Part shown: positions 4,465 to 32,738 of the stretch, piece after piece
How the letters are laid out: the number at the start of each line of letters is the position of its first letter
How positions within the stretch are numbered: the first letter of the stretch is position 1
Assembly (NCBI GenBank): GCA_031287415.1
Contig: JAITSY010000026.1
Coordinates: 3,503 to 67,502, forward strand
Source: Candidatus Methanorbis basalitermitum
GTDB taxonomy: Archaea; Halobacteriota; Methanomicrobia; Methanomicrobiales; Methanocorpusculaceae
Reading direction: 5' to 3'
DNA length: 64,000 nucleotides
Position numbers and translations under genes: made by a program
The notes under the pieces: model-generated
Seen by the model: the letters and a program-made list of their open reading frames with translations, nothing else
Database searches by the model: none
What the model was told of the DNA's origin: nothing

Positions 4465-6089
4465 GTATCTTCGATGTGAGAATACGTGACGGTCTTGCAA
4501 GAATAGGGGTGCTCCGTGTAGGCGAAGAAGAGATCCGCACACCTGCCGCTGCTGAGACGACAAAACTTTTCCCCTCGCTTCTCTGCCGACCACTCACCAA
4601 TCTACCGCCCTCAGCCTCACTGCCCGACGTGGACGCCTATTATGTACCGGGACATGAACCAGTTGCATTTCATCCGCGGGCCGCCTGTACTGCAGTTTCC
4701 GGTGAAGTAATCCTGATCTCTGGCTGGCACCAGACATTGGGTGACGCCCGCAAATATGCTGAATATCTTTCGGCTGTCCTTGCAGGTACTCCACCGGACA
4801 CTGCCAGGTACGCCCCGGCCTGCGCCCTGCCATCAAATGTTGCGATGCTGATTGCCACCGGCTTTGATCTTTTTGACTACATCGCGGCTGATCTTGCCTC
4901 GATGAGAGGGAGGTTCTGCATGCCAGAAGGAGAATTCAACGCCTCTTATATGAAAAAAGGCATCTGCGGCTGTGAAGGCTGCCGGATGGGAGACCTGCTC
5001 AGTCATAATCGGTTCGCCCTTGATCGGGAAATCACCCTCGTCAAAACATGGATCGAGATGGGCCAGGTACGGGAACTTTTCGAGCAACGGTGCAGACTGC
5101 ACGCTGAACAGGTCAGTCTGCTGCGGCATCTTGACCGATACGTATTCACCGCTGCGGCACTTCCTGTCGTCCGTTCATCACGATTCATGGCAAACTCCGG
5201 CGAGTCCCTGACCCGTCCAGAGATAGCCTTCTTCATGGATCGGGTGATCAATCGTTTTGTTCCTTCGCGAAACGACGTGTGTGTTCTTCTGCCCTGTGCA
5301 GCGCGAAAACCCTACTCCCTGTCAAAAACGCATCAGAGGTTCCAGAAGGTCATCGAAGGACGGGCACACGAGGTTATTATCACCTCGCCATTAGGCGTTG
5401 TTCCCCGCGAACTGGAGCTGATCTACCCGGCGGGCCACTATGATGTGCCGGTCATCGGTTACTGGAACCGCGAGGAGTCGGCAATTCTTGCCAAATATGT
5501 GGCGGCATATCTAACAAAGCACCGGTATAAGCGAGTCATCTGCCATCTTGAAGGCGGGGCAAAAGCTGTTGCTGTTGCTGCTGCGGAAGATGCAGGCATC
5601 ACTCTTGAGTTCAGCTGCATGGATGACCGTCCCTCCTCGCCCGACTCACTGTTGATCTTGGATAATGCGTTAAAGGACTGCCGCAAACAGAGATCAGATC
5701 CCATTCGTGGGATATTTGCCTGGCAGTTCGGCAAACTTGTCGATACGAAAGGCTGGATCACCAAAGGCCGATATCCAAACCAGAAGATCTATGAAAAAAA
5801 ACAGCAGCTTTTCTCCATTGATGCTGCAACCGGCCTGTTGCGCCCAACAATGGGCGGATGGCGGTTTGTTTCCGGCTACCGCGTCACCATCTGCGGGGGA
5901 TTTGTTCCGCAGGGTGACATTCTTGTCCCAGGTGTTGCCGACTGCGACCCAAACATCCGGGAGGGTGACGAGGTGTATGTGATCGGGCCCAGTTATGCTG
6001 CGACCGGCAGAGCAGAGATGAGTGCAGATGAGATGCTCCGTTCCTCCCGCGGCATCGCCGTTCGCGTGCGAAAGACAAAAAAAGATTAG
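4461..6089 (+). CDS. arcS: Archaeosine synthase subunit alpha with C-terminal PUA domain
   Basis: ATG overlaps the tgtA stop; LLPCAARKPYSLSKTH, TSPLGVVPRELE, YDVPV; PUA domain. Confidence 0.9.
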   Translation: MSIFDVRIRDGLARIGVLRVGEEEIRTPAAAETTKLFPSLLCRPLTNLPPSASLPDVDAYYVPGHEPVAFHPRAACTAVSGEVILISGWHQTLGDARKYAEYLSAVLAGTPPDTARYAPACALPSNVAMLIATGFDLFDYIAADLASMRGRFCMPEGEFNASYMKKGICGCEGCRMGDLLSHNRFALDREITLVKTWIEMGQVRELFEQRCRLHAEQVSLLRHLDRYVFTAAALPVVRSSRFMANSGESLTRPEIAFFMDRVINRFVPSRNDVCVLLPCAARKPYSLSKTHQRFQKVIEGRAHEVIITSPLGVVPRELELIYPAGHYDVPVIGYWNREESAILAKYVAAYLTKHRYKRVICHLEGGAKAVAVAAAEDAGITLEFSCMDDRPSSPDSLLILDNALKDCRKQRSDPIRGIFAWQFGKLVDTKGWITKGRYPNQKIYEKKQQLFSIDAATGLLRPTMGGWRFVSGYRVTICGGFVPQGDILVPGVADCDPNIREGDEVYVIGPSYAATGRAEMSADEMLRSSRGIAVRVRKTKKD

Positions 6090-6092
6090 ACG

Positions 6093-6203
6093 TGTCGATT
6101 TTAGAGGAAATATATAAATAAGCTTCAGTTCTCTATTGATATAGACAGATATATTTCAGATTTGAAGAACAATTTCCATTCAAACTGATAATTCCGAAAA
6201 ATT
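6093..6203 (+). repeat. Repeat family A copy 1 (111-bp AT-rich dispersed element)
   Basis: Aligns without gaps to 12103-12213 and to the reverse complement of 22066-22176. Confidence 0.92.
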
Positions 6204-6204
6204 G

Positions 6205-6260
6205 AGTTGCGGGGTTGCTAACCCCCATGCGGGAGCAACTGCCCCGCCAGCCATACAACT
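6205..6260 (+). repeat. TGCA-rich family B-related short element
   Basis: Starts agttgc, ends gccatacaact like family B right ends. Confidence 0.55.
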
Positions 6261-6346: not shown

Positions 6347-8356
6347 ATGGCATCCGTCGCCGACTATTTCCCGTACCAGTCCTTCCGCAAAAACCAGAAA
6401 GAAATGCTGGAGGCAGCGGCAAAAACCGCTCGGGATGGAGGCATCCTGATGATAGACGCTCCGACCGGCAGCGGCAAGTCAAGCGTCATTGCTTCTCTCC
6501 TTGCCGAGGCAAACGGCAAAAAGATCTTTGTCGCTGTCCGCACCATCTCTCAGCTGCAAATCTTTATCCGGGAACTCGAACTCATCCGACAGAAGAAAAA
6601 GAAAGATCTCAAGTTCGTCTATCTCATCGGTAAAGGAAACATGTGTCCACTCGGAGGCTATGGTGATGTCTATCGCCGGTGCCAGGGTGTCAAGGCCTTT
6701 TCAACAGCTCTCATGCATGAGCGTGCTGACCGCGGCTCAATGATTCCAGCAAAGGACAAAATGATTCTTGAGCAAATCCGCAGGCAGGATCGCGACCACC
6801 CAATGCTCTGCCCATACTTCATCAGCAGCCGCGTCTTCGTGCAGAGCGAGGATGGCGGTCGACGGATGATTCCCTCGCAGGAGATGCGAACGAAGTCCGA
6901 GCAGGCACAGAAGGGAGTTGTCATGCCAGGTGATCTCCATGAGTTTGCCGGAAACGTCTGTCCGTACGATCTTATGCTCTCCGCTGCCCGCGGTGCGGAT
7001 GTTGTCATCCTCAACTACCATCATCTCTTCAGCGACGACATCCGCGAACAATTATACGTGACACTCCAATGCGAACCGGCCGATGTCATGCTGTTATTAG
7101 ACGAGGCCCACAATCTCGGTGATATCGTGCAGGGCATCCAAAGCATCCGTTTAAGTGAGAATGACATTGAAAGCGCCTCATATGAACTTGCCTCCACCCG
7201 AGGAAAAGTTCGTGGAGCAGATGCCGTCCGGCACGTTCTGCCTCGGATTGCGGAGTTCATGAATGGCCTCAAACGCTCCAACGAAGCAGAGGACTGGTTT
7301 GATCCGGCAATTTTCAACCGACTACTCATCAAAGGTTCACTCTACGAAAAATTCGATGGCATCCTCGATGATCTTCTATCGATTAAAGAGACACTTCGCG
7401 AGGCAAGCATTCAGAAAGCAGACTACCGGGAAACAGCAATCGAGCGGCTGTGTGAATTTCTGTTCCGCATCTACCGATCCTCCTCCAATCCGGCATTTCT
7501 TACCATCTACGTCAAGGACGGCGAATTGGTGATCCTTGAGGTCAGAAACATCGACCCAGCCAATCGGTTGCAGGAAATGGTCACGATGCATGCTGCAACC
7601 GTTCTTATCAGCGGAACGCTTGCACCAGTCGAGGCTTACCGGAGCTATTATTTTGGAGAGTTGCCAGTGGCAACTCTTTCACTGCCAAACTCCTTCCCTA
7701 AAGAAAATCGGCTGATTCTCGCAAGCCACGACATCACCACCGCATTCTCGCGGCGGCAGAATACAGTGAACACGCAAGCTATCGTCACCTACATCCTCGC
7801 GTTTGCAAAACTGCCAGGGAACGTTGCAATCTACTTTCCGTCGTACCAGCTCCAGTCACAATTTGCCAAACTCTGCGACGGTAAAATCAGGACCAAACAG
7901 GTGTTCATCGAGCCACGAGAGACTGAGGAAGCGAATGCCGCCCTCAAGGAGTTTGTGCTGTTACCCGCAAAGCGGAAGTCTGGCATTATGTTTGCTGTCT
8001 GCGGCGGTAAGTGGAGTGAAGGTTTAGACTACCGGGGAGACCAACTGACCGCTGCTATGGTGATCGGTCTGCCTCTCGCCCCGTTTACCAGGGTGCGGAG
8101 GATGGTTAACAGCTACTTTTGCCGCAAGTTCGGTGATAACGGAGAGTTCATCGCCTATACGCTCCCTGCAATGAACAAAGCCATGCAAGCGCTTGGCCGC
8201 GTTCTCCGCACCGAGACCGATCGGGGCGTTCTCATTCTCGGCGAGGAACGGTTCTTGGCTCCCGAGATCTTCTCAGGCCTGCCGCCATGGATGAAAGCTG
8301 AACTTCGGGAATGCGATGCTGACACACTTGCCGGAATCCTTGCCAAATGGAAGTGA
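6347..8356 (+). CDS. xpd: XPD/Rad3 Fe-S DNA helicase
   Basis: APTGSGKS, four Fe-S Cys (NMCP, RRCQ, LCPY, VCPY), DEAH, SGTL, SEGLDY, QALGRVLR. Confidence 0.92.
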   Translation: MASVADYFPYQSFRKNQKEMLEAAAKTARDGGILMIDAPTGSGKSSVIASLLAEANGKKIFVAVRTISQLQIFIRELELIRQKKKKDLKFVYLIGKGNMCPLGGYGDVYRRCQGVKAFSTALMHERADRGSMIPAKDKMILEQIRRQDRDHPMLCPYFISSRVFVQSEDGGRRMIPSQEMRTKSEQAQKGVVMPGDLHEFAGNVCPYDLMLSAARGADVVILNYHHLFSDDIREQLYVTLQCEPADVMLLLDEAHNLGDIVQGIQSIRLSENDIESASYELASTRGKVRGADAVRHVLPRIAEFMNGLKRSNEAEDWFDPAIFNRLLIKGSLYEKFDGILDDLLSIKETLREASIQKADYRETAIERLCEFLFRIYRSSSNPAFLTIYVKDGELVILEVRNIDPANRLQEMVTMHAATVLISGTLAPVEAYRSYYFGELPVATLSLPNSFPKENRLILASHDITTAFSRRQNTVNTQAIVTYILAFAKLPGNVAIYFPSYQLQSQFAKLCDGKIRTKQVFIEPRETEEANAALKEFVLLPAKRKSGIMFAVCGGKWSEGLDYRGDQLTAAMVIGLPLAPFTRVRRMVNSYFCRKFGDNGEFIAYTLPAMNKAMQALGRVLRTETDRGVLILGEERFLAPEIFSGLPPWMKAELRECDADTLAGILAKWK

Positions 8357-8363
8357 AAGAGTG

Positions 8364-8891
8364 ATGCAGACAGGTGCGTGCAGTTTTGGGTTGTGGATGG
8401 TGACCATCTCTTGGGAGGGAAACATTGTGTATCAGGTGCATTTCGCCCGTTCCGCCCAGGCAGGGCCGGTGCCCATGCAGTTCACAAAATTTCTTGCAGG
8501 GAGGACCAACAGCTTCCTGCCTCTGATATCGGCGGTGATTGCCGAAAGCAGCACGGCAGCAAGTAGGCAGATGGCAGTCAGTAACCCAGCGGGGTTGCAA
8601 CACTTCCCACTTGGGGACTGCTGCAGTTCAATCTACACCCGAATTTATGCAGCGGTATCGCAGATTCCTTACGGTGAGACGCGGACGTATCGTGAGATCG
8701 CCCTTTCTGCCAGCACGCACCCAAGAGTCGTCGGTAATGCCATGGCGAAAAACCCAACCGCCCTCATTGTCCCCTGCCATCGGGTCATCGCCTCTAACGG
8801 AACACTTGGAGGATTTACCCCCGATTTGCAGATCAAAAAGGATCTTCTGCGGATGGAAGCAGCAAAAAGGCGTACCTTCGGCAAGTCCTGA
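8364..8891 (+). CDS. ogt: Methylated-DNA-protein-cysteine methyltransferase, with a probable internal insertion of about 26 aa
   Basis: IPYGETRTY, RVVGNAM, NP, PCHRV active site. Confidence 0.9.
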   Translation: MQTGACSFGLWMVTISWEGNIVYQVHFARSAQAGPVPMQFTKFLAGRTNSFLPLISAVIAESSTAASRQMAVSNPAGLQHFPLGDCCSSIYTRIYAAVSQIPYGETRTYREIALSASTHPRVVGNAMAKNPTALIVPCHRVIASNGTLGGFTPDLQIKKDLLRMEAAKRRTFGKS

Positions 8892-9009
8892 CCCCAAACA
8901 AAGCGACAAGAGGCAAGCAGCAGTCTACCACATCCAGCTTGAGGATTGTAACAAACGAACATTTATCTTCATATCTGATAATGATATAAATATAGTAGGT
9001 ATCAGAGGC

Positions 9010-10320
9010 ATGGCTGACAATAATAGTGCAGGAGGTCCAAACCGATATCGCAAGCTATCGGGTATCGGCATCTTGAAACGGCTGTTTTCCTGGGATAAGG
9101 TGCAGTATGAGATAGTTCTCGCGGAAAATGAATATCTGGAGATTGCGGGATCACTATCTACCGCCAATAAAAATATCGAACGATTTAAATACGAAATTGC
9201 CGATTTTACCGAAAAACTCGCCAAAGAAATCGCCGCGCATGAACTCCTAAAGGACAGTTACGAAACCAATAGCAAAAACTGGGCTGAGGATGCAGAGTGC
9301 AAAGCTGTCGCCCTCAAAAAACAGCAAATGGCTCTTGAAGCGGAACTTGCAGATGCAATCGGCAGGGGTGCGAAGCTGGAAATCCGTCTTACACAAAAGG
9401 AGTCTGAGTTATCGGAAAAGACCGAATGCTACGACACGCTCACCGCCGAGTACACTGCCCTCCTGCACAAAAAGAATGAGGCCCTTGACCGTCTTGCCTC
9501 CTCCGAAGAAGCTATCAACTGCCTCAATGCAGAGTTCAAGGAGAGGAGCCGCCTGTTTGTGCCAACTATCCATGAACTTACGCGGACAGTTGACTCCGGA
9601 AAGTATCAGCGTGAATGCGATTTAATGGAGATTCATCGTCTCAAGACCATGCTCGATGCCAGCGGGAAGGAGATTGCTTGCTTGACGCAGGAGCTGAACG
9701 CCCTAAAGGACACCAAGAAGCAGATGCTCACCGAGATCAACCGAATGGGATTTGTATCCATTCAGACCGCCTCTGAAAACCGGCAGAAACAGGAGCAGCT
9801 CAAAGAGGAACAGGCAAAACTCGTGAAAGAGATCAATCAGATCAAACAGACAAAGCAGTCCCTTCAGTCTGATCTCTCCGAAAAACAGCAGACACTCTCC
9901 ACATACTCTGCCATCACCGATGAGATCATCAGGGAGTGGAAAATGCACGGTGACCGGACAAAAGCCTGCATCGCCAAAGCGGCAGGTACTATTCCTGCCG
10001 AGGAGAAGTACGGATTCCTTGCCCTGGTGAGCGGTCATCCTGTTGCCTTTGTGGCATTTTCTCCTGCATCGTATGAGGAGCTGAGAGGAGCTGATGCGAT
10101 GGTCCGCGAGGCTGCAAAGAAACTGGCAAACTCCGTTGCATCGATCAACTGCCGCAAGGAAGCATTTGTTGTTGTGCCAGACGAGTGCATGATGTACATC
10201 ACCAAAAGCATGTATGCCTCGCATGTCTGCTCGGTACAGGTTATCACGCCGTCGCAGATTATTGCAGTGGTCCGGATGATCGCCCAGTTTGTGATCTACG
10301 AAAAGACACAGACCAGGTAA
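9010..10320 (+). CDS. Coiled-coil protein with degenerate RmuC-like C-terminal domain (paralog 1)
   Basis: N-terminal RLFSW motif, long heptad region, EAFVVVP...VQVITP shared with the next ORF; ATG at 9010 after an AT-rich promoter region. Confidence 0.7.
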   Translation: MADNNSAGGPNRYRKLSGIGILKRLFSWDKVQYEIVLAENEYLEIAGSLSTANKNIERFKYEIADFTEKLAKEIAAHELLKDSYETNSKNWAEDAECKAVALKKQQMALEAELADAIGRGAKLEIRLTQKESELSEKTECYDTLTAEYTALLHKKNEALDRLASSEEAINCLNAEFKERSRLFVPTIHELTRTVDSGKYQRECDLMEIHRLKTMLDASGKEIACLTQELNALKDTKKQMLTEINRMGFVSIQTASENRQKQEQLKEEQAKLVKEINQIKQTKQSLQSDLSEKQQTLSTYSAITDEIIREWKMHGDRTKACIAKAAGTIPAEEKYGFLALVSGHPVAFVAFSPASYEELRGADAMVREAAKKLANSVASINCRKEAFVVVPDECMMYITKSMYASHVCSVQVITPSQIIAVVRMIAQFVIYEKTQTR

Positions 10321-10450
10321 CTCTTTGCTCTCTGTTCTTTTCCTCAAATTGGAAGCAAAACCGTGGGGCTGCAGCACTTCCCATGCAGGGGTTGCAACGA
10401 ATGCGCATGTATTATCTGATAGGACACCCATACAATTCTCTGATTAGATT

Positions 10451-11947
10451 ATGAGCGATTCGGATAATCTTGGTACCTTCTTCGGAAAGATCCGGAGCGC
10501 CGGGGCGAGAGCACGCCTTTTTTCCTGGAAAAAAATCTGTGATGCAGCCGCTGCCGCCGAAGAGGCATATACGGATCTAGCTGAGACTCTTGCCGTGACA
10601 CAACAGAAACTTGTCGAAACAGAGAACCTTGCCACTTCCCGGGAAGCCGAGATTGGCAGCCTGAGCACCCGTCTTGCCGAGGCAAAATCCTGCAACGATG
10701 ACCTTCACGGCGATATGGACAGCCTTTCCGAAGACCGGCAGATTCTTGAGGACAGGCTCTCCAAGATGACAAAGACTGCATCCGCCAATGCCAATTCCGC
10801 AGAGCAGTGGAAGGCTGCAGAGGGTGCACGCCGAGCAGAGCTTGCCGCCGTACATGACATGTATAAGGAACTGTCCGCCATTCGTGTCAGTCTTTGTACC
10901 GAACGCGATAATCTTGCAGTAGATCTTGCAGCAGAACGCAGTGCCCATCTTGCGGACAATGACCAGGCAAGAATCTTTCGCGATCAGTATCTTTCCCGTG
11001 AGTTGGAGATCGACGGCCTCCGCAAGGATCTCGATGCATCCATAAAGAAGATTGCTGCGCAGCAGGTAGAAATTGATGGTTATGTTGAGGAACGCGATGT
11101 GAAGTACGCAGCTCTTGCAATCGAGGCTGAACGCCTGAACACTCTTGCGGCAAAGCTTGAAGAGGAGAGGAAAGCAACAGAGCTTTCTGCACGTCAGAAT
11201 CTTGTGGAGATCTTTGCAGACCATCCCAACCGTGTCGGTGCGATTTTGGAAAAGGTCTGTGCTGATCTGAATCTTGATCTCAAAACCGAGACAACCTACA
11301 AGGGAAGGTCGCACCCGAACTTTGCGGTGCTGGTCAACAGCAGCTATGTTTTTTTCAATACGGCAGTCCCTGCATCGCTGGATGCTGCTGCCTTCTTTGA
11401 AGAACATGTTGCAGAAATGGCAACCGAATTATTCGAGGCAGCAAAGGAGGACGGCGTCCGCAGCGAGGCATATCTCGTCGTGCCGAATGCGATTGCGGCA
11501 AAGCTTACCGAGTTAGTGTATGTATCCTACCGCTGTACGGTGTTTGTGGTAACCCCCGAGGCGCTCGAGGCCATTGTCCGCACGCTCAAGAGGATTGAGG
11601 AATACGAGTTCACCCGCCAGATTACGCCATTCGAGTTGGATCAGATATGCCGGTTCATCGGTAAGCTGTCCCACATGACCAAGAGAAAGATCGTGCTTGA
11701 TACGTACTTCAGTAATGAGATGCTGGAGATTCTGCAGATGGTCGAGAATCTGCCGACTGATGTTGCGGCTGATGCGGCAGTCTACGAGCGTGAGGTACGG
11801 ATGAATCCGCCTGCCGAACGCGACACTGCGGTTCTGACGGTGCCGTCGCTTTCGGCAAAGGTGCAGAAACTGGAAAAAGCCATGCTTGTCCGGGCAGCTA
11901 CCGAGGCGAGAGAGGTTTCCGAAAAATCAGAGCTTGCAGAAAAATAA
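10451..11947 (+). CDS. Coiled-coil protein with RmuC-like (PD-(D/E)xK fold) C-terminal domain (paralog 2)
   Basis: RLFSW motif, coiled coil, EAYLVVPN...FVVTPEAL, LKRIEEYEF; T-tract after the stop. Confidence 0.75.
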   Translation: MSDSDNLGTFFGKIRSAGARARLFSWKKICDAAAAAEEAYTDLAETLAVTQQKLVETENLATSREAEIGSLSTRLAEAKSCNDDLHGDMDSLSEDRQILEDRLSKMTKTASANANSAEQWKAAEGARRAELAAVHDMYKELSAIRVSLCTERDNLAVDLAAERSAHLADNDQARIFRDQYLSRELEIDGLRKDLDASIKKIAAQQVEIDGYVEERDVKYAALAIEAERLNTLAAKLEEERKATELSARQNLVEIFADHPNRVGAILEKVCADLNLDLKTETTYKGRSHPNFAVLVNSSYVFFNTAVPASLDAAAFFEEHVAEMATELFEAAKEDGVRSEAYLVVPNAIAAKLTELVYVSYRCTVFVVTPEALEAIVRTLKRIEEYEFTRQITPFELDQICRFIGKLSHMTKRKIVLDTYFSNEMLEILQMVENLPTDVAADAAVYEREVRMNPPAERDTAVLTVPSLSAKVQKLEKAMLVRAATEAREVSEKSELAEK

Positions 11948-12102
11948 TTTTTTGTGATAGCAGGAGGCAGGCTGCGTGGCAGCTCTGCTGGGTTGCAACT
12001 TTAGTGTCTTTGGTGCCTAATAGAGTTGAGGAGAGGCTCAGATGAGGGATGAGGGAAGAACACGTGCATTAAAAAGATATTGTGTTTATGCAAAAATGGA
12101 CT

Positions 12103-12213
12103 TATCGGTTTTGGTTATAATATATAAAGGGTTCGTATATCTCTATTGATATAGACGGTTATATTTCAGATTGGAAGAACGGTCCCCATTCAAACTGAGA
12201 ATTCCGAAAAATT
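12103..12213 (+). repeat. Repeat family A copy 2
   Basis: ctctattgatatagac...tttcagattggaagaac...cattcaaactga.aattccgaaaaatt. Confidence 0.92.
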
Positions 12214-12377
12214 ATGAAACTATGTCTCTATATGGTAAGAAATATAATGTTCGCCACCCGCAGGCAGAAAATTTTCATGGAACCTCTCCACAAAACCGCC
12301 TTCCCATCGATCATCATGTTTAAACAATGCGGCATCTCCCCCATCAGTTGCCTAAGTGGAAGAATGGATCAACATCT

Positions 12378-13121
12378 ATGAAGACATCTTCCGACCTGAC
12401 CCCATCAGCTACCGTACCGGCCAACACAGGGAAAATTTTGCAGAAACGTCTCTTCGAACCAACCTATTCCACCGTCCTTTTCGATATGGACAACACACTC
12501 TTCGATTTCATCGCCGCAATGAAACGAGGAGCAGCGGCGGCAGCAGAAGCAGCAGGGGTTGGAACAGGAGACCATCTGCTATCCTATTATCTCCGGTGGA
12601 AGTACCACATTGAAGACCATGCAAACCTGCAGGATTTTATGATAGATCATCACCGGTTCACCGTGGACAACTATCTTGCTGCCATTCGAGCATTCGAAGA
12701 GGCAAAGTTTGCCTGCCTCGCTCCGTACCCGGGTATCCCCAGTCTTCTCGCATCCCTACAGGAAAAAGGATATCGGCTTGGCATCGTCACCGATGCTTAT
12801 GAGTATGCAGCAGCCGAACGCCTGAAACATACCGGCCTTGAAACCTATTTCGACGTTGTTGTCACCTACGATTCAACCGGTTACAAAAAACCGCATCATG
12901 CACCCTTCGAGTACGCCATGAACTTGCTTGGTACCCGGCCGCATGAAACCGTGTACATCGGCGACTCCATCCGCCGCGACATTGAACCTGCCAAGGCTCT
13001 CGGGCTTGCGGCAGTCTACGCTGCATACGGTGACCGGAATTTTTTTGAACAACAGAGATGCTGCCCGTCCCGCGTTATTGCTGTACACAACCCTGACGAA
13101 CTCGGAAAAATCCTGTTGTAG
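12378..13121 (+). CDS. HAD-superfamily hydrolase (start uncertain)
   Basis: FDMDNTL motif I, GIVTD, KKP, YIGDSIRRDI. Confidence 0.88.
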   Translation: MKTSSDLTPSATVPANTGKILQKRLFEPTYSTVLFDMDNTLFDFIAAMKRGAAAAAEAAGVGTGDHLLSYYLRWKYHIEDHANLQDFMIDHHRFTVDNYLAAIRAFEEAKFACLAPYPGIPSLLASLQEKGYRLGIVTDAYEYAAAERLKHTGLETYFDVVVTYDSTGYKKPHHAPFEYAMNLLGTRPHETVYIGDSIRRDIEPAKALGLAAVYAAYGDRNFFEQQRCCPSRVIAVHNPDELGKILL

Positions 13122-13328
13122 AGATTATGCCGAACGTGAGTAATATTTACTATTTTTGGAAGAAATTCCAGCAAAAACGGATCCGGCATAAGGGGAGGGT
13201 GAAGACGGATTTTTTCCTGCGATTAGGCACACCAGCACCATCGATCAGGATGTGCCCGAAGACAAAGGCTACACCTTCCAAAATACCGCCTTAACCATCC
13301 TGCAAAGTCCGATCAAAAAACCTGCCGA

Positions 13329-13480
13329 AGCTGCAACTCTCTGGTAGAGGTTACGCCGACACATCTGCGCAAGCAGCAAACAAGGCTTGGCCTTGCGTCG
13401 TCAACGGCATGCACGCACAATGCAGGGCAATGGGACAAACATCTCACCAGAGCCTGCATACGCACCGCTGCCATGCAACT
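13329..13480 (+). repeat. Repeat family B copy (full length, MITE-like)
   Basis: agctgca...ctggtagaggttacgccgacacatctgcgcaagcagcaa...ccgctgccatgcaact; inverted ends. Confidence 0.88.
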
Positions 13481-13534
13481 ATCCCCTGTGAACACCATAA
13501 CAATTAATCCCCACACACTCCAATAAAAGAATAT

Positions 13535-14527
13535 ATGCTGGATAAATACAAGGGATGCCTCCTCGGCGCAGTACTTGGCGACGCCCTTGGCATGCCCAGT
13601 GAAACCACCGTAAGTCGGTTCATCGGAGCCACCCTCGGATTCAAACGGGCATACAAAGGTCACCCAAACCATGACCTCCTCCCGGGCCAATACACCGATG
13701 ACTCTCAACTCATCCTCATCGCCTCCCGCCTCCTTGCTGAGGCAAACTGGGGTCCTGAACCATACGCAAAAGAACTGCTCCGCACATATACCCTCAACAA
13801 ATTCCGCTACCCTGACGGAACCATCTACGCCGCATGCAAACGCATGAAAAATACTGGTGACCTCACCGGGTCAGGCGTCTCTTCTGACAGTGCAGGATGT
13901 GTCTCCCTTGCTGTACCCTTTGCGCTTGTTTACAAAGACCGCAGAGAGATGGCGCCCAAACTCCTTGAAGCCTGCAATATCACCCATACCCACACCGGAA
14001 CCGGCGCTGCAGCCATAGGTGTCGCACTCATGCTCAATACCCTCATCGAAACAGGCAACACCGACGACGCATATTTAGCCCTCCTCACTGCCGCACAAAA
14101 TATGAACCCCGATCTTGCTTCCCGCATCAACAACGCAGTCCGTATCGAAAGAACCGGTATGCAGATAACTGACGCCCTTGCTGCAATTGGCAACTCTTCC
14201 TCAATCTATCACACCCTCCCCCTCGCAATATTCCTCTGTAAACGCTACAGCGTCCCAGAAGAACTCCTCACCTCCGCGGCAGCATGTGGCGGCAATGCAG
14301 ACACCCTCACGCTCCTCTGCGGAGCATTCTCCGGCGCGCGTTACGGCATCTCCTCCCTCCCGCAGGAACTCCTTGCCAAACTCGAACGAAGAGGCGAGTT
14401 CGAAGCCCTCGCAGAAAAATTCATCGACCCCAAAAAGCCTGAAATTCCCGCGGCAGCAGAAACACCCAACCAAAAACCCTCGAAAAGTCCGGAGAGCATC
14501 TACGACGCCGGCTGGGAACCCGAATAA
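13535..14527 (+). CDS. ADP-ribosylglycohydrolase (DraG/ARH) family protein
   Basis: GCLLGAVLGDALG, GQYTDDSQL, ITHTH, GGNADT, GAFSGARYG. Confidence 0.9.
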   Translation: MLDKYKGCLLGAVLGDALGMPSETTVSRFIGATLGFKRAYKGHPNHDLLPGQYTDDSQLILIASRLLAEANWGPEPYAKELLRTYTLNKFRYPDGTIYAACKRMKNTGDLTGSGVSSDSAGCVSLAVPFALVYKDRREMAPKLLEACNITHTHTGTGAAAIGVALMLNTLIETGNTDDAYLALLTAAQNMNPDLASRINNAVRIERTGMQITDALAAIGNSSSIYHTLPLAIFLCKRYSVPEELLTSAAACGGNADTLTLLCGAFSGARYGISSLPQELLAKLERRGEFEALAEKFIDPKKPEIPAAAETPNQKPSKSPESIYDAGWEPE

Positions 14528-14554
14528 CCCCACGCTTTTTCAAAGCACAGCAGC

Positions 14555-14660
14555 AGTTGCACGCCCCTGATAGAGGTTACGCCGACACATCTGCGCAGGC
14601 AGCAAGTAAGGCATGGCCTTGTGTCGTCGGCGGCGTGTGCGTGCATTGCATGGCAGCGAC
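14555..14660 (+). repeat. Repeat family B copy
   Basis: agttgcacgcccctgatagaggttacgccgacacatctgcgcaggcagcaag, highly similar to the copies at 13329 and 32641. Confidence 0.9.
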
Positions 14661-14685
14661 ACACCGCCTACTTCAAAGCCCCGTA

Positions 14686-15313
14686 AGGTATTTCCGAACT
14701 GCACCGAGAAGAAGTCCGTGGGGAGGAATTCGTCGCAAATCCCGGCTATTTTCCAAGCGGAACAAACCTTGCTGCAGCACCCGTAGCTGACATCGCTGCG
14801 ACTATCATCTACGACTCAAAGAGTGGCATCTCCGGAACGGGTGACTCCATCTCCGAAACCACCCATTATCCGAACATTGCCGGAAACGCCTCCCCGTACA
14901 AAATCACCTCCCACCGGCATCTACCAGAGATGAAACAGGAAGCAGCATGTCTTGGCTCCAAAGCCAGCATCTACTTCACTCCTCATCTACTTCCGGTAAC
15001 CCGGGGAATTATCACCACTGCCCACATCCTCTTTGAAGAACATGTCTCCTTTGACGAAATCAGGCGCCGTTACGACGCCTTCTACAAAAACGAACCCTTC
15101 ATCCGTTTCCAGATCGCAAAACTTGGCGGTGTTCACGGCTCAAATTTCTGCGACATCAACTTCGAACTCGGGGCAGATGGAATGCGGTTTGTCACCATTT
15201 CCGCAATCGATAACCTCATCAAAGGAGTGGAAGGCCAGGCAATCCAGAACATGAATATCATGTGCGGATACACCGAAATCGATGGACTGCAGGTCCCAGG
15301 AATGTTTCCATAG
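14686..15313 (+). pseudogene. argC: N-acetyl-gamma-glutamyl-phosphate reductase, 5'-truncated and frameshifted
   Basis: ISELHREE / VANPGYFP (catalytic Cys of NPGC lost), [41 protein letters not shown]; N-terminal domain missing. Confidence 0.88.
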
Positions 15314-15359
15314 GAACATTCAAGATACATAAAACAGTTATATACATGCTGATATCCAT

Positions 15360-16445
15360 ATGCAGAGTATCTGTACTGTTAAAGGGTTAAAGGCGTCACC
15401 ACATGAGGTGTAAAAGAAGGAAAATACGGCCTTGCACTCATTAAAGCATCCGGAACAGGGGTGGCTGTCTTTACCAGCAACAAAGTCCGTGCACCGGTTA
15501 TTAATCTCATGGCGGAGCGTACCAAACGCGGGAAGCTTGCAGGCATCATTGCAAACGGTGGATGCGCCAACGCCTATACCGGTGAGCGCGGATATGAGGA
15601 TGCCAAGACTATGGCATCCATCGGTTCGGAGGTTCTTGGTATTTCTGAGAAGGAAACCGGCGTTGCCAGCACCGGTGTGATTGGCAGATACCTTGACCTT
15701 AATCTGATCCGCCGCAAGAGCAATCATGACAGCTGACATGGTGCAGAAGCATGCCCTCGTGCAACGGGAAGGTTTTACCATTGCAGGCATCTGCAACGGC
15801 TCGGGAATGATTGCCCCAAATATGGGCACGATGCTTTCCTTCATCTATACGGATGTGGAGGTCTCCGCAGAGCATCTCCATGAGGCACTAAAGACCGCAG
15901 TGAAGCAGGGAGACGCAGCCCTCCTCAAAAGCTGTGGCAAACTCATCTTTTGGCACACGACCTGCTTTGCCAGTAGCCGTGCAGAAGAGCGAGTCGTTCG
16001 TGCTTTCATCTCCGTCCACAACCACACGGTTCAAACTCTTGCGATGCAGACTGCAGCTGACGGCGAGGGGACAACCAAGATGCTTGAGGTACACGGGTCA
16101 AAGGGGCGTGCCGCGAGAAGGACGCCGAAAAGATCGCGCACGTACTGTGATCACATCACCGCTTGTAAAGAGTACGGTGAAGATCCGAATTGGAGCAGAG
16201 TTGTCTGTGCTGCCGGATGCTCGGGTGTTGAGTTTGCGATTGATGAGCTATCTCTTTCGATCGGTGAAAACGGGAGCGAAACTCTGCTTGTGCAAACAGG
16301 CGAGAACACTGCAGACCTCGTGGGGGCGAAGGCAGCGATGGTCGGCAGGCACATGGTATTTACCATTACACTTGAATTCGGCAGGAAAGAGGCGGTTGCA
16401 TGGGGCTGCGATCTGACAGAAAAATACGTGGAGATACATCAACGC
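15360..16445 (+). pseudogene. argJ: Ornithine acetyltransferase, multiple frameshifts and deletions
   Basis: KEGKYGLALI, VFTSNKVRAP, NGGCANAYTG, ASTGVIG, GSGMIAPNMGTML, DGDESTND, DGEGTTK, GEDPNW, AWGCDLT..YV spread over three frames. Confidence 0.92.
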
Positions 16446-16452
16446 AGACACA

Positions 16453-16764
16453 ATGGCCGGTGAGATTGCGGGGCCCCTCAAGGCATTCAAAATGATCTCA
16501 CTGGCTGATGTGGATGGTGTGATGAACAAAGAACAGACAAAGCTGTTTCACCGCCTTACGCTGAAGAAGGTGGACGCTCTGATGGCAGACGGTGCGATCT
16601 CGGGCGGGATGACCCCGAAGCTTGAGGCGAGTGTGAATGCGGTGCGCCACGGTGTCGAGGGTGTTCATGTGGTGAATGGGAATGCTGAGCACAATCTTCT
16701 TCTGGAGCTGTTCACAAACGAGGGTGTGGGGATGATGATTACGGCTTCGATGATCAATTTCTAA
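16453..16764 (+). pseudogene. argB: Acetylglutamate kinase, C-terminal remnant
   Basis: DVDGVM, ISGGMTPKLEA, VHVVNG...LLLELFTNEGVG; N-terminal two thirds absent. Confidence 0.88.
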
Positions 16765-21689: not shown

Positions 21690-22067
21690 ATGGCAAACCC
21701 ACAGGCGGGCATTTCCCCGCAAATTCAGCAGCAGCTGGCAATGTTTCAGCAGATTCAGCAACAACAGCAGCAGGTATCTTCCCAGAAGATGCAGTATGAG
21801 ATGACGCTTCGCGAGACCAAACGTGCCCTTGAGGAACTCAGCACCGCAGCAGAGGATACGGCTGTGTTCTTTTCAGCAGGTTCGATTCTGATCCAGAAAA
21901 AAAAGGGTGCAGTTGCAGCAGATCTTCAGGAGAGGATCGATTCGGTGGAGCTTCGGGTAGGTTCTCTTGACAAGCAGGAGAAGGCAATGACTGCAAAAGC
22001 AAGCCAACTGCAAAAACAGATTCAGGATGCACTCGCCATCCAAGGCGGTGGACAGGCTGCCCAATAA
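21690..22067 (+). CDS. pfdB: Prefoldin beta subunit
   Basis: Gln-rich helix, ALEEL, AGSILI hairpin; operon position. Confidence 0.92.
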   Translation: MANPQAGISPQIQQQLAMFQQIQQQQQQVSSQKMQYEMTLRETKRALEELSTAAEDTAVFFSAGSILIQKKKGAVAADLQERIDSVELRVGSLDKQEKAMTAKASQLQKQIQDALAIQGGGQAAQ

Positions 22068-22176
22068 TTTCTCGGAATTATCAGTTTGAATGGGAATTGT
22101 TCTTCAAATCTGAAATATAACAGCCTATATCAATAGAGAACGAAGAAACATCTATATATTACCACTAAAACCGATA
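22066..22176 (-). repeat. Repeat family A copy 3
   Basis: Reverse-complement match to copies 1 and 2; abuts the pfdB stop codon. Confidence 0.92.
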
Positions 22177-22298
22177 GGTTTATAATTTTTTCTGTTCTAT
22201 GGATAAGATTTCATCATCACAGCCAAATTTCGCACCAGTTTCGCGTTTTTCCATACTGCAATACACAGACATTTCCCCCAAACAGGTACGAAAAGATA

Positions 22299-22510: not shown

Positions 22511-22805
22511 ATGACTGCTCTAATAACAATGCTGTTTTCAGATATAAACATGACGCTTCGCGTGATATTACGCATAAAAAAGGGCTTACTTCGGTTATCT
22601 GGGACCTGGCGATATGATCGGCGTTTTTGGAACGGCAGAGAAATCAGCAGTACTGAGTTTCCCTGGTTCTCATTTTTTATCAAGCCAATTTTCTGCAGGT
22701 CGATAGGCAGGCGGGATGACATTCCAGTATCATGTTGTTTTTGGCATACATCCCTCGGGAACAGGCTGCCTGATACCGGGTATCTCTATCATTCCGTTTT
22801 CGAAT

Positions 22806-22918
22806 ATAGTTTTGAAATTATCAGTTTGAATGGGAACTGTTCTTCAAATCTGAAATATAACAGTCAATATCAATAGAGAATAAAGAAATAAAGAGATAGT
22901 GAGTAACTAAAACCGATA
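22806..22918 (-). repeat. Repeat family A copy 4
   Basis: Reverse-complement match with a 2-nt insertion in the variable part. Confidence 0.9.
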
Positions 22919-23019
22919 ATTCCATACATATGCCTTAACATCCAAAATAAGATCGCCCATCTCAAAAAACGAAGAAAAATCACGAAAAAATACCATTTTG
23001 GTCTTTTGCTTGCGGTCAC

Positions 23020-30389: not shown

Positions 30390-32656
30390 CCGTTGTTCAA
30401 CCCTATAAAAAAGGGTACAAGGTCTATTTTTGTGATGATGCAAAGAGCGGCAGAATAAAACACGTCGGTACCGTTGAGCTTGAGGAGACCAGCAAAGGTA
30501 TCCGGCCTTCGGAGTTTTTCGTCCGGAGGCCTGGGGCCTCCCACGCACAAAAGACACCGACCAAAGAATTCATCACGGTGCTTCGGGCAAACGGCGTGGT
30601 TCAGCTCACCGAAACACTGCCGGCATTTCAGGATTTTCTGCGGAGCATGCAGATTTCGTGGGAGAAGATTATCCTCTGCCGCACCTGTATGTTTGACGAC
30701 CGGTTGACTCCAATGACCGAAGTGACCCGCATCAAGTACGGACAAGAGTATGTCTGTCTTGACTGCGCAAAGCGCGAACTCCGCCGTGAACTTGCCCACA
30801 TCAAACGGCCCGGCAGGCGGACCCAGATGCACATCGAGGGCCTCCTTGAGGAGTACCGCGACCTTGACATGGTGCTTGCGATTCTCCAGCCGGAGTCACT
30901 TGATACCAAAAAAACGATGTTCGACCGGCTCGATGCCCATGAGCAGACACCGACGGAACGACTCGAAAACCTGCCGCTTCCCCGTGAATTCATCGATGTC
31001 TGCGGAATTGAGACTCTCATGCCTGCACAGCAGTGTGCGGTTGAAGCAGGACTTCTGTTCGGAAAAGATCTTCTCGTGGTTGCCGCAACCGCATCCGGAA
31101 AGACCTTCATCGGTGAGATGGCAGGACTCAAAAACTATCTTGAAAAGCGGGGACGCATGTTCTTTTTGGTACCGCTCGTTGCTCTGGCAAATCAGAAGTA
31201 TGATCGCTTTTCTAAGAAATACGAAGGGCTTGCCACAACCTCGGTAATGACCGGGATTTCCCGTGTCAATCTGCCGGAAACTCGGCCAGTCGGCAACCGG
31301 GGTTCGAGTGGCGGTATTGTAGTAGGAACGTATGAAGGAGTTGACAACCTTCTCCGAAAGGGTACGGGCCTGCACAACATCGGGACTGTTGTCATCGACG
31401 AGGTGCAGATGCTCGAATATCCCGAACGCGGCCATCGACTTGATGGCCTCATCGCCAGACTAAAGTATATCGCCCCCAAAGCCCAGTTCCTCTATCTCTC
31501 TGCAACGATCGGGTCACCGCATCTACTAGCCAAAAAACTCGAGGCAACGCTGGTCTCGTATGCGGATCGCCCCGTTGCGCTTGAGCGGCACCTCATCTTC
31601 ACGGAAAAGGACGCGAAGGTCCCCTACATCAAAAAACTGGTCTTTGAGGAGTACAACAAGATTTCATCGAAGGGCTATCGCGGTCAGAGCATTATTTTCA
31701 CGAATGCTCGCAGCCGCTGCCACACCGTGGCGGATGCGATTGGAAAACAGGCAATGCCGTACCATGCGGGTCTTACCTCACATGAGCGACGGGCTGTTGA
31801 GAAGCAGTTTGAGGGGGGAAAACTTGCCTGCGTTGTCACGACCGCGGCTCTTGCGGCAGGTGTTGATTTTCCGGCATCACAGGTGATCTTTGATGCTCTT
31901 GCGATGGGGATTACCTGGCTAACCGTGCAGGAGTTCCATCAGATGATGGGACGTGCCGGCCGCCCAGATTTCCATGATCTTGGCCGTGTGGTAATCCTCG
32001 CTGAGCCAGGCGCCTCATATTCGCGTGATACAAAACTTACCGAGGAGGAGGTTGCCATCCGTCTGCTGAAGGGTGACGTGGAGGAGGTTGCTCCGATGTA
32101 TGAGATTGAGGAGACCTCTGAAGAGTTCGCTGCAAACGCGGTGATTTGCCGGGGTAGTGCGGCGGACATTGTGAAAACCGGTGCGATGATGGTTGGTTGC
32201 GGCGAGGATCCGCTGCCGGATCTTCTGTGGCATAAGCTCATCCGCAAGAGCGGTGGAGTTCTTGAGCTTTCTCCTCTCGGCCACGTGATGGCCGAGCAGT
32301 TCATCGGCATAGAAAAACTGCTGGAAATCGACCGGCTGGTCCGGGTGATGGATGATCCGTTAGAACTGATCGCCGAGATCGAATGTTCCGGAGAGGAACG
32401 TGACAAGGAAAAACGGCGTACCGGCCGAAAATCTGCAGAAAAGGAAGAATCGGACTGGATGGCCGGAAAGAAATCAGCCAAAATGAAGCCGCGAAGTGAC
32501 GCACCCCTTGCAAGGGTAATTGAGAGAGAAGCAGCCACTACAACAAAGAAACACGAACACAATCGGAAGGGGCAATCCAGCAAGAGCGACACGAAGAGGA
32601 AACTCCTGCATGGACACAAAGAAACCGCTGCAGATGCAAAAGCTGCACGCCTCTGA
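30383..32656 (+). CDS. Ski2-like DEAD/DEAH helicase (ASH-Ski2 type)
   Basis: N-terminal CxxC/CxxC, ATASGKT, DEVQ, SAT, QMMGRAGRP. Confidence 0.88.
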   Translation: MVTVVQPYKKGYKVYFCDDAKSGRIKHVGTVELEETSKGIRPSEFFVRRPGASHAQKTPTKEFITVLRANGVVQLTETLPAFQDFLRSMQISWEKIILCRTCMFDDRLTPMTEVTRIKYGQEYVCLDCAKRELRRELAHIKRPGRRTQMHIEGLLEEYRDLDMVLAILQPESLDTKKTMFDRLDAHEQTPTERLENLPLPREFIDVCGIETLMPAQQCAVEAGLLFGKDLLVVAATASGKTFIGEMAGLKNYLEKRGRMFFLVPLVALANQKYDRFSKKYEGLATTSVMTGISRVNLPETRPVGNRGSSGGIVVGTYEGVDNLLRKGTGLHNIGTVVIDEVQMLEYPERGHRLDGLIARLKYIAPKAQFLYLSATIGSPHLLAKKLEATLVSYADRPVALERHLIFTEKDAKVPYIKKLVFEEYNKISSKGYRGQSIIFTNARSRCHTVADAIGKQAMPYHAGLTSHERRAVEKQFEGGKLACVVTTAALAAGVDFPASQVIFDALAMGITWLTVQEFHQMMGRAGRPDFHDLGRVVILAEPGASYSRDTKLTEEEVAIRLLKGDVEEVAPMYEIEETSEEFAANAVICRGSAADIVKTGAMMVGCGEDPLPDLLWHKLIRKSGGVLELSPLGHVMAEQFIGIEKLLEIDRLVRVMDDPLELIAEIECSGEERDKEKRRTGRKSAEKEESDWMAGKKSAKMKPRSDAPLARVIEREAATTTKKHEHNRKGQSSKSDTKRKLLHGHKETAADAKAARL

Positions 32657-32738
32657 TAGGGATTACACCAGCACATCTGCGCAAGCTGCAAGCAAGAGGC
32701 ACTTGGCCTTGCGTCGTCAGCGGCGTGCACGTGCAACT
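32641..32738 (+). repeat. Repeat family B copy overlapping the helicase stop codon
   Basis: agctgcacgcctcTGAtagggattacaccagcacatctgcgcaag...gtgcaact. Confidence 0.88.

What the first reader, a model, noticed from the sequence alone, without database searches (positions are those of the whole stretch)
8550..8627. Probable in-frame repeat insertion inside the DNA-repair gene ogt
Seen: the segment STAASRQMAVSNPAGLQHFPLGDCCS (about 78 bp) lies just before the IYTRIY..IPYGET helix. Its DNA carries repeat-like blocks: ggcagcaagta as in the 14555 copy, and ggggttgcaac plus gcarcacttccca as in the intergenic element near 10366-10399. The frame and PCHRV site are intact. Established: Rickettsia palindromic elements insert in frame into proteins. 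Inference, from my recollection that related Ogt proteins have a short linker here: the same peptide-donating behaviour in an archaeon.
Basis: partly seen in the sequence, partly recalled or inferred. Interest (0 to 1): 0.72.

Follow-up and report, generated by a model that had tools for sequence, protein, structure and literature searches.

The report
Repeat-donated peptides in methanogen enzymes
A 78-base copy of a scattered hairpin repeat family, found in this genome and in none of the related genomes searched, sits in frame inside the DNA-repair gene ogt of a methanogen. It likely adds a floppy 26-residue loop without breaking the enzyme, and relatives of the repeat sit in frame in five other intact genes, as is known from Rickettsia.

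Summary
Confirmed and extended. ogt (8364-8891) carries exactly 78 extra bases (best bounds 8547-8624), absent from 25 of 25 orthologues aligned. The insert belongs to a small, diverged subfamily of a genome-wide family of about 300 GC-rich hairpin repeats: profiles trained without it find it at E 1e-6 to 4e-5 (reversed genome: best E 4.5). The commonest module occurs 93 times here and in 0 of 53 other genomes of the family. The frame, the PCHR site, dN/dS (about 0.1) and the fold look intact; the insert is predicted as a disordered inter-domain linker. A comparison with a relative found five more frame-preserving copies in intact genes, among them 67 residues in the only isopentenyl phosphate kinase found. 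No target duplication or mobilising enzyme was found; roughly a quarter of orthologous genes are broken. Translation is not shown, and no independent read covers the insert. The phenomenon is known from Rickettsia and already reported for an archaeon (M. jannaschii, Suyama 2005). This scan noted it before on other DNA (DPANN archaea; a modular family in another termite-gut methanogen). I found no description of this family.

The parts
8364..8891 (+). ogt, O6-methylguanine-DNA methyltransferase, 175 aa (149 without the insert); frame open
   Evidence: Pfam PF01035; TIGR00589 82.1 bits vs cut-off 46.4; fold matches solved Ogt structures; start by alignment
8547..8624 (+). 78-nt in-frame repeat copy (subfamily C), residues 62-87; 6-nt terminal inverted repeat at 8548-8553 and 8619-8624; inner hairpins
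   Evidence: 78-nt gap in 8 of 8 relatives; profile hits E 1.4e-6 and 3.9e-5; fold; pLDDT below 50 at residues 64-87
8772..8783 (+). PCHR active-site motif (Cys138), intact
   Evidence: invariant in the 40-sequence alignment
10352..10401 (+). intergenic subfamily-C copy (short form), 70% alike to the insert over 50 columns
13312..13486 (+). intergenic copy of the abundant GC-rich family (modules A and B)
14542..14663 (+). intergenic copy of the abundant GC-rich family; shares an 11-mer with the insert; bridged by an identical contig of run X1
32615..32738 (+). family copy in the 3' tail of a DEAD/DEAH helicase gene; brings stop codons and cuts the frame short (757 aa; the relative's stop-to-stop frame is 903 aa)

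Best explanation
The 78 bases are a diverged copy of a lineage-specific, likely non-autonomous mobile hairpin repeat that lies in frame in the linker between the two domains of Ogt, where it is likely translated as a disordered 26-residue loop that leaves the enzyme working. Shown: the segment is new to this lineage, is repeat-derived, keeps the frame, and lies just before the first helix of the catalytic domain. About 300 GC-rich copies built from short TGCA-bounded hairpin modules are spread through the genome, almost all between genes. Of 10 copies inside orthologous gene stretches, 6 keep the frame in otherwise intact genes and 4 sit in broken or truncated ones. Inferred: copies insert more or less at random and without target duplication; selection removes nearly all that hit genes; the few survivors are frame-preserving and tolerated rather than useful; weak selection in a host-associated, eroding genome let them fix. 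The mobiliser is unknown. A route without target duplication (HUH/Y1-type, as proposed for REPs, or recombination-mediated copying) is more likely than DDE transposition, and the enzyme may lie in the missing quarter of the genome or be lost.
For: Insert absent from all orthologues aligned. Profile from 10 other copies: E 1.4e-6, reversed genome best E 4.5. Profile from 11 further copies not picked by direct likeness to the insert: E 3.9e-5, reversed genome best E 5.9. Shared left arm and right hairpin in a 12-copy alignment. Module B: 93 matches here, 0 of 53 other family genomes; 1 stretch in genome contigs, 0 in viral and 0 in metagenome contigs. Only 9 of 302 GC-rich copies lie in orthologous gene stretches, against 178 if random. 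About 0.11 of intergenic copy/frame combinations would keep a frame (71 cores), whereas 6 of 10 in-gene copies do. 0 of 24 insertions on the relative's side match the repeat profiles, against 5 of 11 here. ogt dN/dS is 0.06-0.11 against five relatives (dS saturated for two more), versus 0.05-0.17 among relatives, and the private changes are mostly conservative. AlphaFold gives both domains at pLDDT about 80-94 and only 64-87 below 50; the model matches solved Ogt structures. No excess of flanking direct repeats: 4.2% vs 3.4% in shuffled pairs. No Y1 transposase found.
Against: No read or contig from another run covers the insert, and both database copies of the protein lie on a contig of the same length as this one. 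No expression or activity data. The insert is only 57-81% alike to its nearest copies. It had no pairwise hit at E below 0.001 and does not fold better than shuffles (z -0.66; -1.2). It scores unremarkably under 5th- and 6th-order models of the abundant family (top 4-5% of coding windows). The second profile's members were recruited by the first, whose seeds were chosen by likeness to the insert, so it is not fully independent. Low pLDDT is expected for any segment without aligned relatives. dN/dS averages over the whole branch and cannot see a recent loss of function. ogt has 10 private changes at 84 otherwise invariant sites, more than any of the 7 relatives (1-8). Five other insert-bearing genes rank at the 80th-92nd percentile of dN/dS among intact genes.
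Confidence: 0.8

Rival explanations
1. The insert is repeat-derived, but ogt is already dispensable or dead: the copy landed in a gene released from selection, and the open frame is luck.
For: 198 to 259 of 838 orthologous loci are broken, against 53 of 795 in the reverse control. The neighbouring repair gene addA is hit and broken. ogt has the most private changes of 8 sequences.
Against: No stop or frameshift in ogt; dN/dS about 0.1, like intact genes (median 0.09) and unlike broken genes (0.23). Every position invariant among 39 relatives, PCHR included, is kept. Frame-preserving copies also sit in the only IPK found, so tolerance in working genes is plausible here.
Confidence: 0.12
2. The segment is a unique insertion (local slippage or captured DNA) whose likeness to the repeats is chance in a TGCA-rich genome.
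For: Modest identity to the copies; no pairwise hit at E below 0.001; shared 10-mer not enriched.
Against: 0 of 300 shuffles reach its score; two profiles give E 1e-6 and 4e-5; both ends coincide with the family's ends; no duplication of flanking ogt sequence is visible.
Confidence: 0.04
3. The insert is an assembly artefact of a low-coverage metagenome assembly (a repeat stitched into the gene).
For: Single assembly; no independent cover.
Against: The insert has no near-identical copy from which a misjoin could draw. Six insertions are exact multiples of 3 without stops. Contigs of run X1 match the window without indels and bridge three intergenic copies (X1 may be the source sample).
Confidence: 0.02
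4. The insert is cut out of the RNA like an archaeal intron, so the protein is of normal length.
For: The ends can pair in a short stem. A 67-residue addition to a probably essential kinase is a large burden.
Against: All six copies in intact genes are multiples of 3 and free of stops, which removal would not require (about 0.11 each by chance). Copies occur in both orientations. No Rfam match in 8300-14800. A bulge-helix-bulge motif was not tested formally.
Confidence: 0.02

Closest known systems
Rickettsia palindromic elements (RPE; Ogata et al. 2000, 2002, as summarised in passages of PMC2229807 and PMC10969869; originals not read)
   Same: Lineage-specific dispersed palindromic repeats, mostly intergenic, some in frame inside unrelated conserved genes; host-associated, eroding genome; mobiliser unknown; DNA-repair genes among the targets (PMC3733652 notes this for intragenic REPs).
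   Different: Archaeal host. Copies are mosaics of short hairpin modules, 27-201 nt in genes, not one 105-146 bp stem-loop with about 12 bp inverted ends. No conserved peptide: six different peptides, both orientations. Only about 2% of copies are in frame in genes, against nearly half for the first RPE set. Translation and activity, shown for RPE-bearing Gmk, are untested here.
Palindromic coding repeats of Methanocaldococcus jannaschii (Suyama et al. 2005; seen only as the citing sentence in PMC2229807)
   Different: Different order and habitat. Module B has no exact match in any other archaeal genome of genome contigs. The sequences were not compared directly, as the paper is not held.
REP / BIME / REP-dimer mosaics (PMC3733652, passages)
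   Same: Short hairpins that combine into dimers and mosaics; intragenic cases encode 20-30 residues; the CGTC class lacks a dedicated transposase.
   Different: The ends here are TGCA-type. No Y1/RAYT-type transposase was found in this 74% complete genome.
MITEs, including an AT-rich repeat family in this same genome
   Same: Small, non-coding, multi-copy, with inverted ends.
   Different: Inverted ends are about 6 nt rather than 15-30, and no target duplication is detected. The 15 IS1595 transposase matches in the genome may serve the separate AT-rich family instead (inferred, not tested).

Membership tests
Ogt / MGMT | PF01035 / TIGR00589 above cut-off, PCHR motif, two-domain fold | tested here: met
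Ogt / MGMT | methyl transfer from O6-methylguanine to the active Cys | not testable with these tools
   needs an assay
RPE | dispersed multi-copy family confined to one lineage | tested here: met
   302 GC-rich copies; module B in 0 of 53 other family genomes
RPE | in-frame insertion into unrelated conserved protein genes | tested here: met
   6 genes, each gap confirmed in 4-8 relatives
RPE | 105-146 bp long stem-loop with about 12 bp terminal inverted repeat | tested here: not met
   ogt copy is 78 nt with 6-nt ends, fold z -0.66; family cores median 70 nt, median z -2.9
RPE | copies encode a conserved peptide | tested here: not met
   six unrelated peptides of 9-67 aa in both orientations
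RPE | sequence homology to RPE families | not tested
   no RPE sequence was available; Rfam gave no match in 8300-14800
RPE | insert translated and host enzyme active | not testable with these tools
   RNA runs X4 and X5 do not cover ogt
MITE | 15-30 bp terminal inverted repeats | tested here: not met
   about 6 nt
MITE | target-site duplication | tested here: not met
   3 of 71 cores have a flanking repeat of 4 nt or more, shuffled pairs 3.4%; 0-2 nt at the in-gene junctions. Old copies may have lost it.
MITE | autonomous partner with matching ends | tested here: inconclusive
   IS1595 remnants present; no candidate recognised among 102 ORFs without a match in the relative (read by eye); genome 74% complete
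REP/REPIN with RAYT | Y1 (RAYT-type) transposase in the genome | tested here: inconclusive
   PF01797 not found in a 74% complete genome
REP/REPIN with RAYT | GTAG or CGTC tag at one end | not tested
   not counted; the ends seen are TGCA-type

The most novel reading that the evidence does not exclude
A self-assembling, modular hairpin repeat that moves without target duplication and without a known transposase has overrun one eroding termite-gut methanogen lineage. It has written new 9-67-residue loops into working enzymes, including a probably essential lipid-pathway kinase, which makes it an archaeal parallel of Rickettsia in lifestyle, genome decay and protein remodelling, driven by an undescribed mobility route.
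Probability: 0.2. Interest if true: 0.72.

Novelty: new variant of a known kind. Interest (0 to 1): 0.46.

Why it matters
How proteins gain new internal segments is a standing question, and selfish palindromes that donate peptides have few documented cases. This genome offers six clean natural pairs: the same enzyme with and without a 9-67-residue repeat-derived loop. Ogt and isopentenyl phosphate kinase both have simple assays and solved relatives, so tolerance can be measured directly. It also ties the phenomenon to genome erosion in a host-associated archaeon. The principle is not new, the mobiliser is unknown, and everything rests on one assembly, which caps the interest.

Tried and rejected
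Genome self-BLAST at E 0.001 gave the insert no cover, so membership needed profiles. Markov models of the abundant family were suggestive at order 3-4 (top 0.3-0.6% of coding windows) but not at order 5-6. Iterating the profile drifted into the abundant family by round 4 (103 members; output cut), so the subfamily cannot be counted sharply (23-28 hits at E 0.5). The insert folds no better than shuffles. Reads: five termite-gut runs hold part of 7800-9600 (shares 0.06-0.21); none covers 8401-8782, and no empty-site allele of any copy was seen; lack of cover proves nothing. An exact subfamily-C pattern was absent from 5 of 5 close relatives. Mobiliser searches: PF01797 none; module B absent from viral and metagenome contigs. 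Target duplication was tested and not found. One candidate (C26:105672) was dropped because it lies in a shadow frame downstream of TFB. Two further lineage-specific insertions match no repeat profile and are left unassigned: aglB 39 nt (gap in 5 of 5 relatives) and a DUF5803 gene 54 nt. I first counted ipk as broken; some searches showed a clean 201-nt in-frame insertion. In one search, ogt and the decarboxylase fell out of the dN/dS table because of saturation and were redone (decarboxylase with 2 of 5 relatives). Literature: searches found no description of this family; one search gave no paper on repeats in this genus. Most subscription papers are not searched, and Ogata 2002 was not held. 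Supplements were not opened; those of the bioRxiv preprint are closed and might list this genome's pseudogene load.

Full report
Observation. The window is G000:C30:3503-67502 of a 1.16-Mb, 33-contig genome, 74% complete. The closest named homologues are labelled Methanocorpusculum, Methanorbis or Methanocorpusculaceae. Near-identical pieces lie in termite-gut runs. The gene at 8364-8891 is Ogt: PF01035, TIGR00589 above cut-off, fold matches to solved Ogt structures. Against 25 orthologues aligned it has exactly 26 extra residues before the first helix of the catalytic domain (4 of 30 loci were missed by my filter). The same holds for 39 homologues aligned out of 119 listed. At DNA level the gap is 78 nt in 8 of 8 close relatives. 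The segment's coding score is in the lowest 0.6% of 7,783 coding windows.

Is it a repeat? The genome is rich in repeats: 469 elements, 302 of them GC-rich, 54.6 kb in all. They fall into AT-rich and GC-rich groups. The GC-rich ones are mosaics of short hairpin modules bounded by TGCA-type ends. The insert had no hit in a self-BLAST at E 0.001. Against intergenic DNA its best score was reached by 0 of 300 shuffles and 3 of 300 coding windows, and the hits defined a minor subfamily (C). A profile from 10 such copies, without the insert, found it at E 1.4e-6 over 8557-8625; the reversed genome gave at best E 4.5. A second profile from 11 copies recruited by the first found it at E 3.9e-5 (reversed best 5.9). 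This second test is only partly independent. A 12-copy alignment shows a shared left arm and right hairpin around a core of variable length. The insert's ends match the family's ends at 8547 and 8624, with a 6-nt inverted repeat. Identity to the nearest copies is 57-81%, so the copy is old or the family is loose. It does not fold better than shuffles (z -0.66), while family cores do (median z -2.9).

Distribution. Module B matches 93 times here and in 0 of 53 other genomes of the family. It matches one stretch, in a bacterium, in genome contigs, and none in viral or metagenome contigs. In 1.58 Mb of relative G033 the six profiles gave 0-4 hits each, against 23-410 here. The family is specific to this lineage among the genomes searched.

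Other genes. Of 838 orthologous loci defined against G033, 10 contain a copy. Six keep the frame in otherwise intact genes: ogt (78 nt), hypoxanthine phosphoribosyltransferase (27), an Orn/Lys/Arg decarboxylase (111), a TPR protein (78), an AddB-like nuclease (81; gene cut by the contig end) and isopentenyl phosphate kinase (201). Names come; each gap was confirmed in 4-8 relatives. The kinase is the only over-cut-off IPK match in the genome, lies directly before a gene I recall as IPP isomerase, and splits cleanly into two parts that both align to solved IPKs. That IPK is needed for archaeal lipid synthesis is recalled. Four copies lie in broken or truncated genes: MoaA-like, BioB-like, AddA-like and a helicase tail. 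In an unbiased gap scan of 810 pairs, 5 of 11 insertions here matched the repeat profiles, against 0 of 24 on the G033 side. The TPR and ipk copies were in some training sets; the profile without them gave E 0.068 and 0.032. Only 9 of 302 GC-rich copies lie in orthologous stretches, against 178 if random, and about 0.11 of intergenic copy/frame combinations would keep a frame. By rough arithmetic about 20 frame-preserving copies would be expected if these were neutral, and 6 are seen, so most in-frame hits are also purged.

Is Ogt alive? All positions invariant among the relatives are kept. dN/dS is 0.06-0.11 against five relatives, similar to values among relatives and to intact genes genome-wide (median 0.09; broken genes 0.23). 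AlphaFold models both domains confidently and only residues 64-87 below pLDDT 50, though a segment without aligned relatives scores low regardless. Against this: 10 private changes at 84 conserved sites (relatives 1-8), and no expression data.

Genome context. 259 of 838 loci (198 by a strict rule) carry stops or frameshifts, against 53 of 795 in the reverse control. Internal stops (345) outnumber frameshifts (118), and 112 loci have two or more lesions, which points to real decay rather than sequencing error. A 2026 preprint (10.64898/2026.05.13.724943; passages only) notes that Methanorbis lives in termites and millipedes, possibly in protist-rich niches. It discusses why ciliate-associated Methanocorpusculum resist genome reduction and does not mention repeats.

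Mechanism. No target duplication: 3 of 71 cores vs 3.4% in shuffled pairs, and 0-2 nt at in-gene junctions. No Y1 transposase. IS1595 remnants exist (15 matches, several with stops); I infer that they belong with the AT-rich family. I commit to a non-autonomous hairpin repeat that spread without duplication, by an HUH-like or recombination route (inferred), was filtered by selection on frame and protein fold, and fixed under weak selection. Confidence is 0.8 for the whole reading and lower for the route.

Known systems. It works like the Rickettsia palindromic elements (passages of PMC2229807, PMC10969869, PMC3733652) but fails RPE membership on size, long stem and conserved peptide, and fails MITE membership on inverted-repeat length and duplication. 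PMC2229807 states that archaeal repeats with open frames fused into protein genes were reported by Suyama et al. 2005, so the archaeal aspect is not new; I saw only the citing sentence. Searches found no description of this family. Earlier notes of this scan report similar in-frame hairpins in DPANN archaea and a modular hairpin family in another termite-gut methanogen (unchecked AI notes); this genome had no notes.

Verdict. A real in-frame repeat insertion, one of six in an eroding methanogen genome; a new variant of a known kind; interest 0.46.

Noticed in passing
G000:C32:8436-8636 (L122): 201-nt (67-aa) in-frame subfamily-C copy, reverse orientation, in the only isopentenyl phosphate kinase found; absent in 4 of 4 relatives. 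The element's first 9 bases resemble the relatives' sequence at the site (8 of 9). A stronger case than ogt.
   Followed up: yes
G000:C2:428-454, C10:37665-37775, C17:26931-27008, C33:36620-36700: In-frame repeat copies in hypoxanthine phosphoribosyltransferase (9 aa), an Orn/Lys/Arg decarboxylase (37 aa), a TPR protein (26 aa) and an AddB-like nuclease (27 aa).
   Followed up: yes
G000:C16:20691-20729 (L121) and C25:25319-25372 (L123): Lineage-specific in-frame insertions in the oligosaccharyltransferase AglB (13 aa) and a DUF5803 protein (18 aa); no match to the repeat profiles, so the origin is open.
   Followed up: partly
whole genome G000: 24-31% of 838 orthologous loci are broken (control 7%): heavy pseudogenisation in a termite-gut member of this family, suggestive of a host-restricted or intracellular life.
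   Followed up: partly
window 6060-6213, 12064-12251, 22057-22208, 22778-22940: A second, AT-rich repeat family (about 105 copies in the genome), possibly derived from the IS1595-type elements whose remnants are present (15 matches).
   Followed up: partly
window 32615-32738: A repeat copy cuts short the tail of a DEAD/DEAH helicase gene.
   Followed up: yes
window 14930-16764: Fragmented ORFs that look like arginine-biosynthesis genes (names recalled); a kinase-family match at C30:19901-20242 has an internal TGA.
   Followed up: no
window 9010-10320 and 10451-11947: Two adjacent long proteins without Pfam match, apparently coiled-coil-rich and similar in layout, flanked by repeat copies.
   Followed up: no
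G000:C26 near 105672-105713 (L120): A subfamily-C-like piece between the TFB gene and what looks like a tRNA gene (not scanned); not coding.
   Followed up: partly
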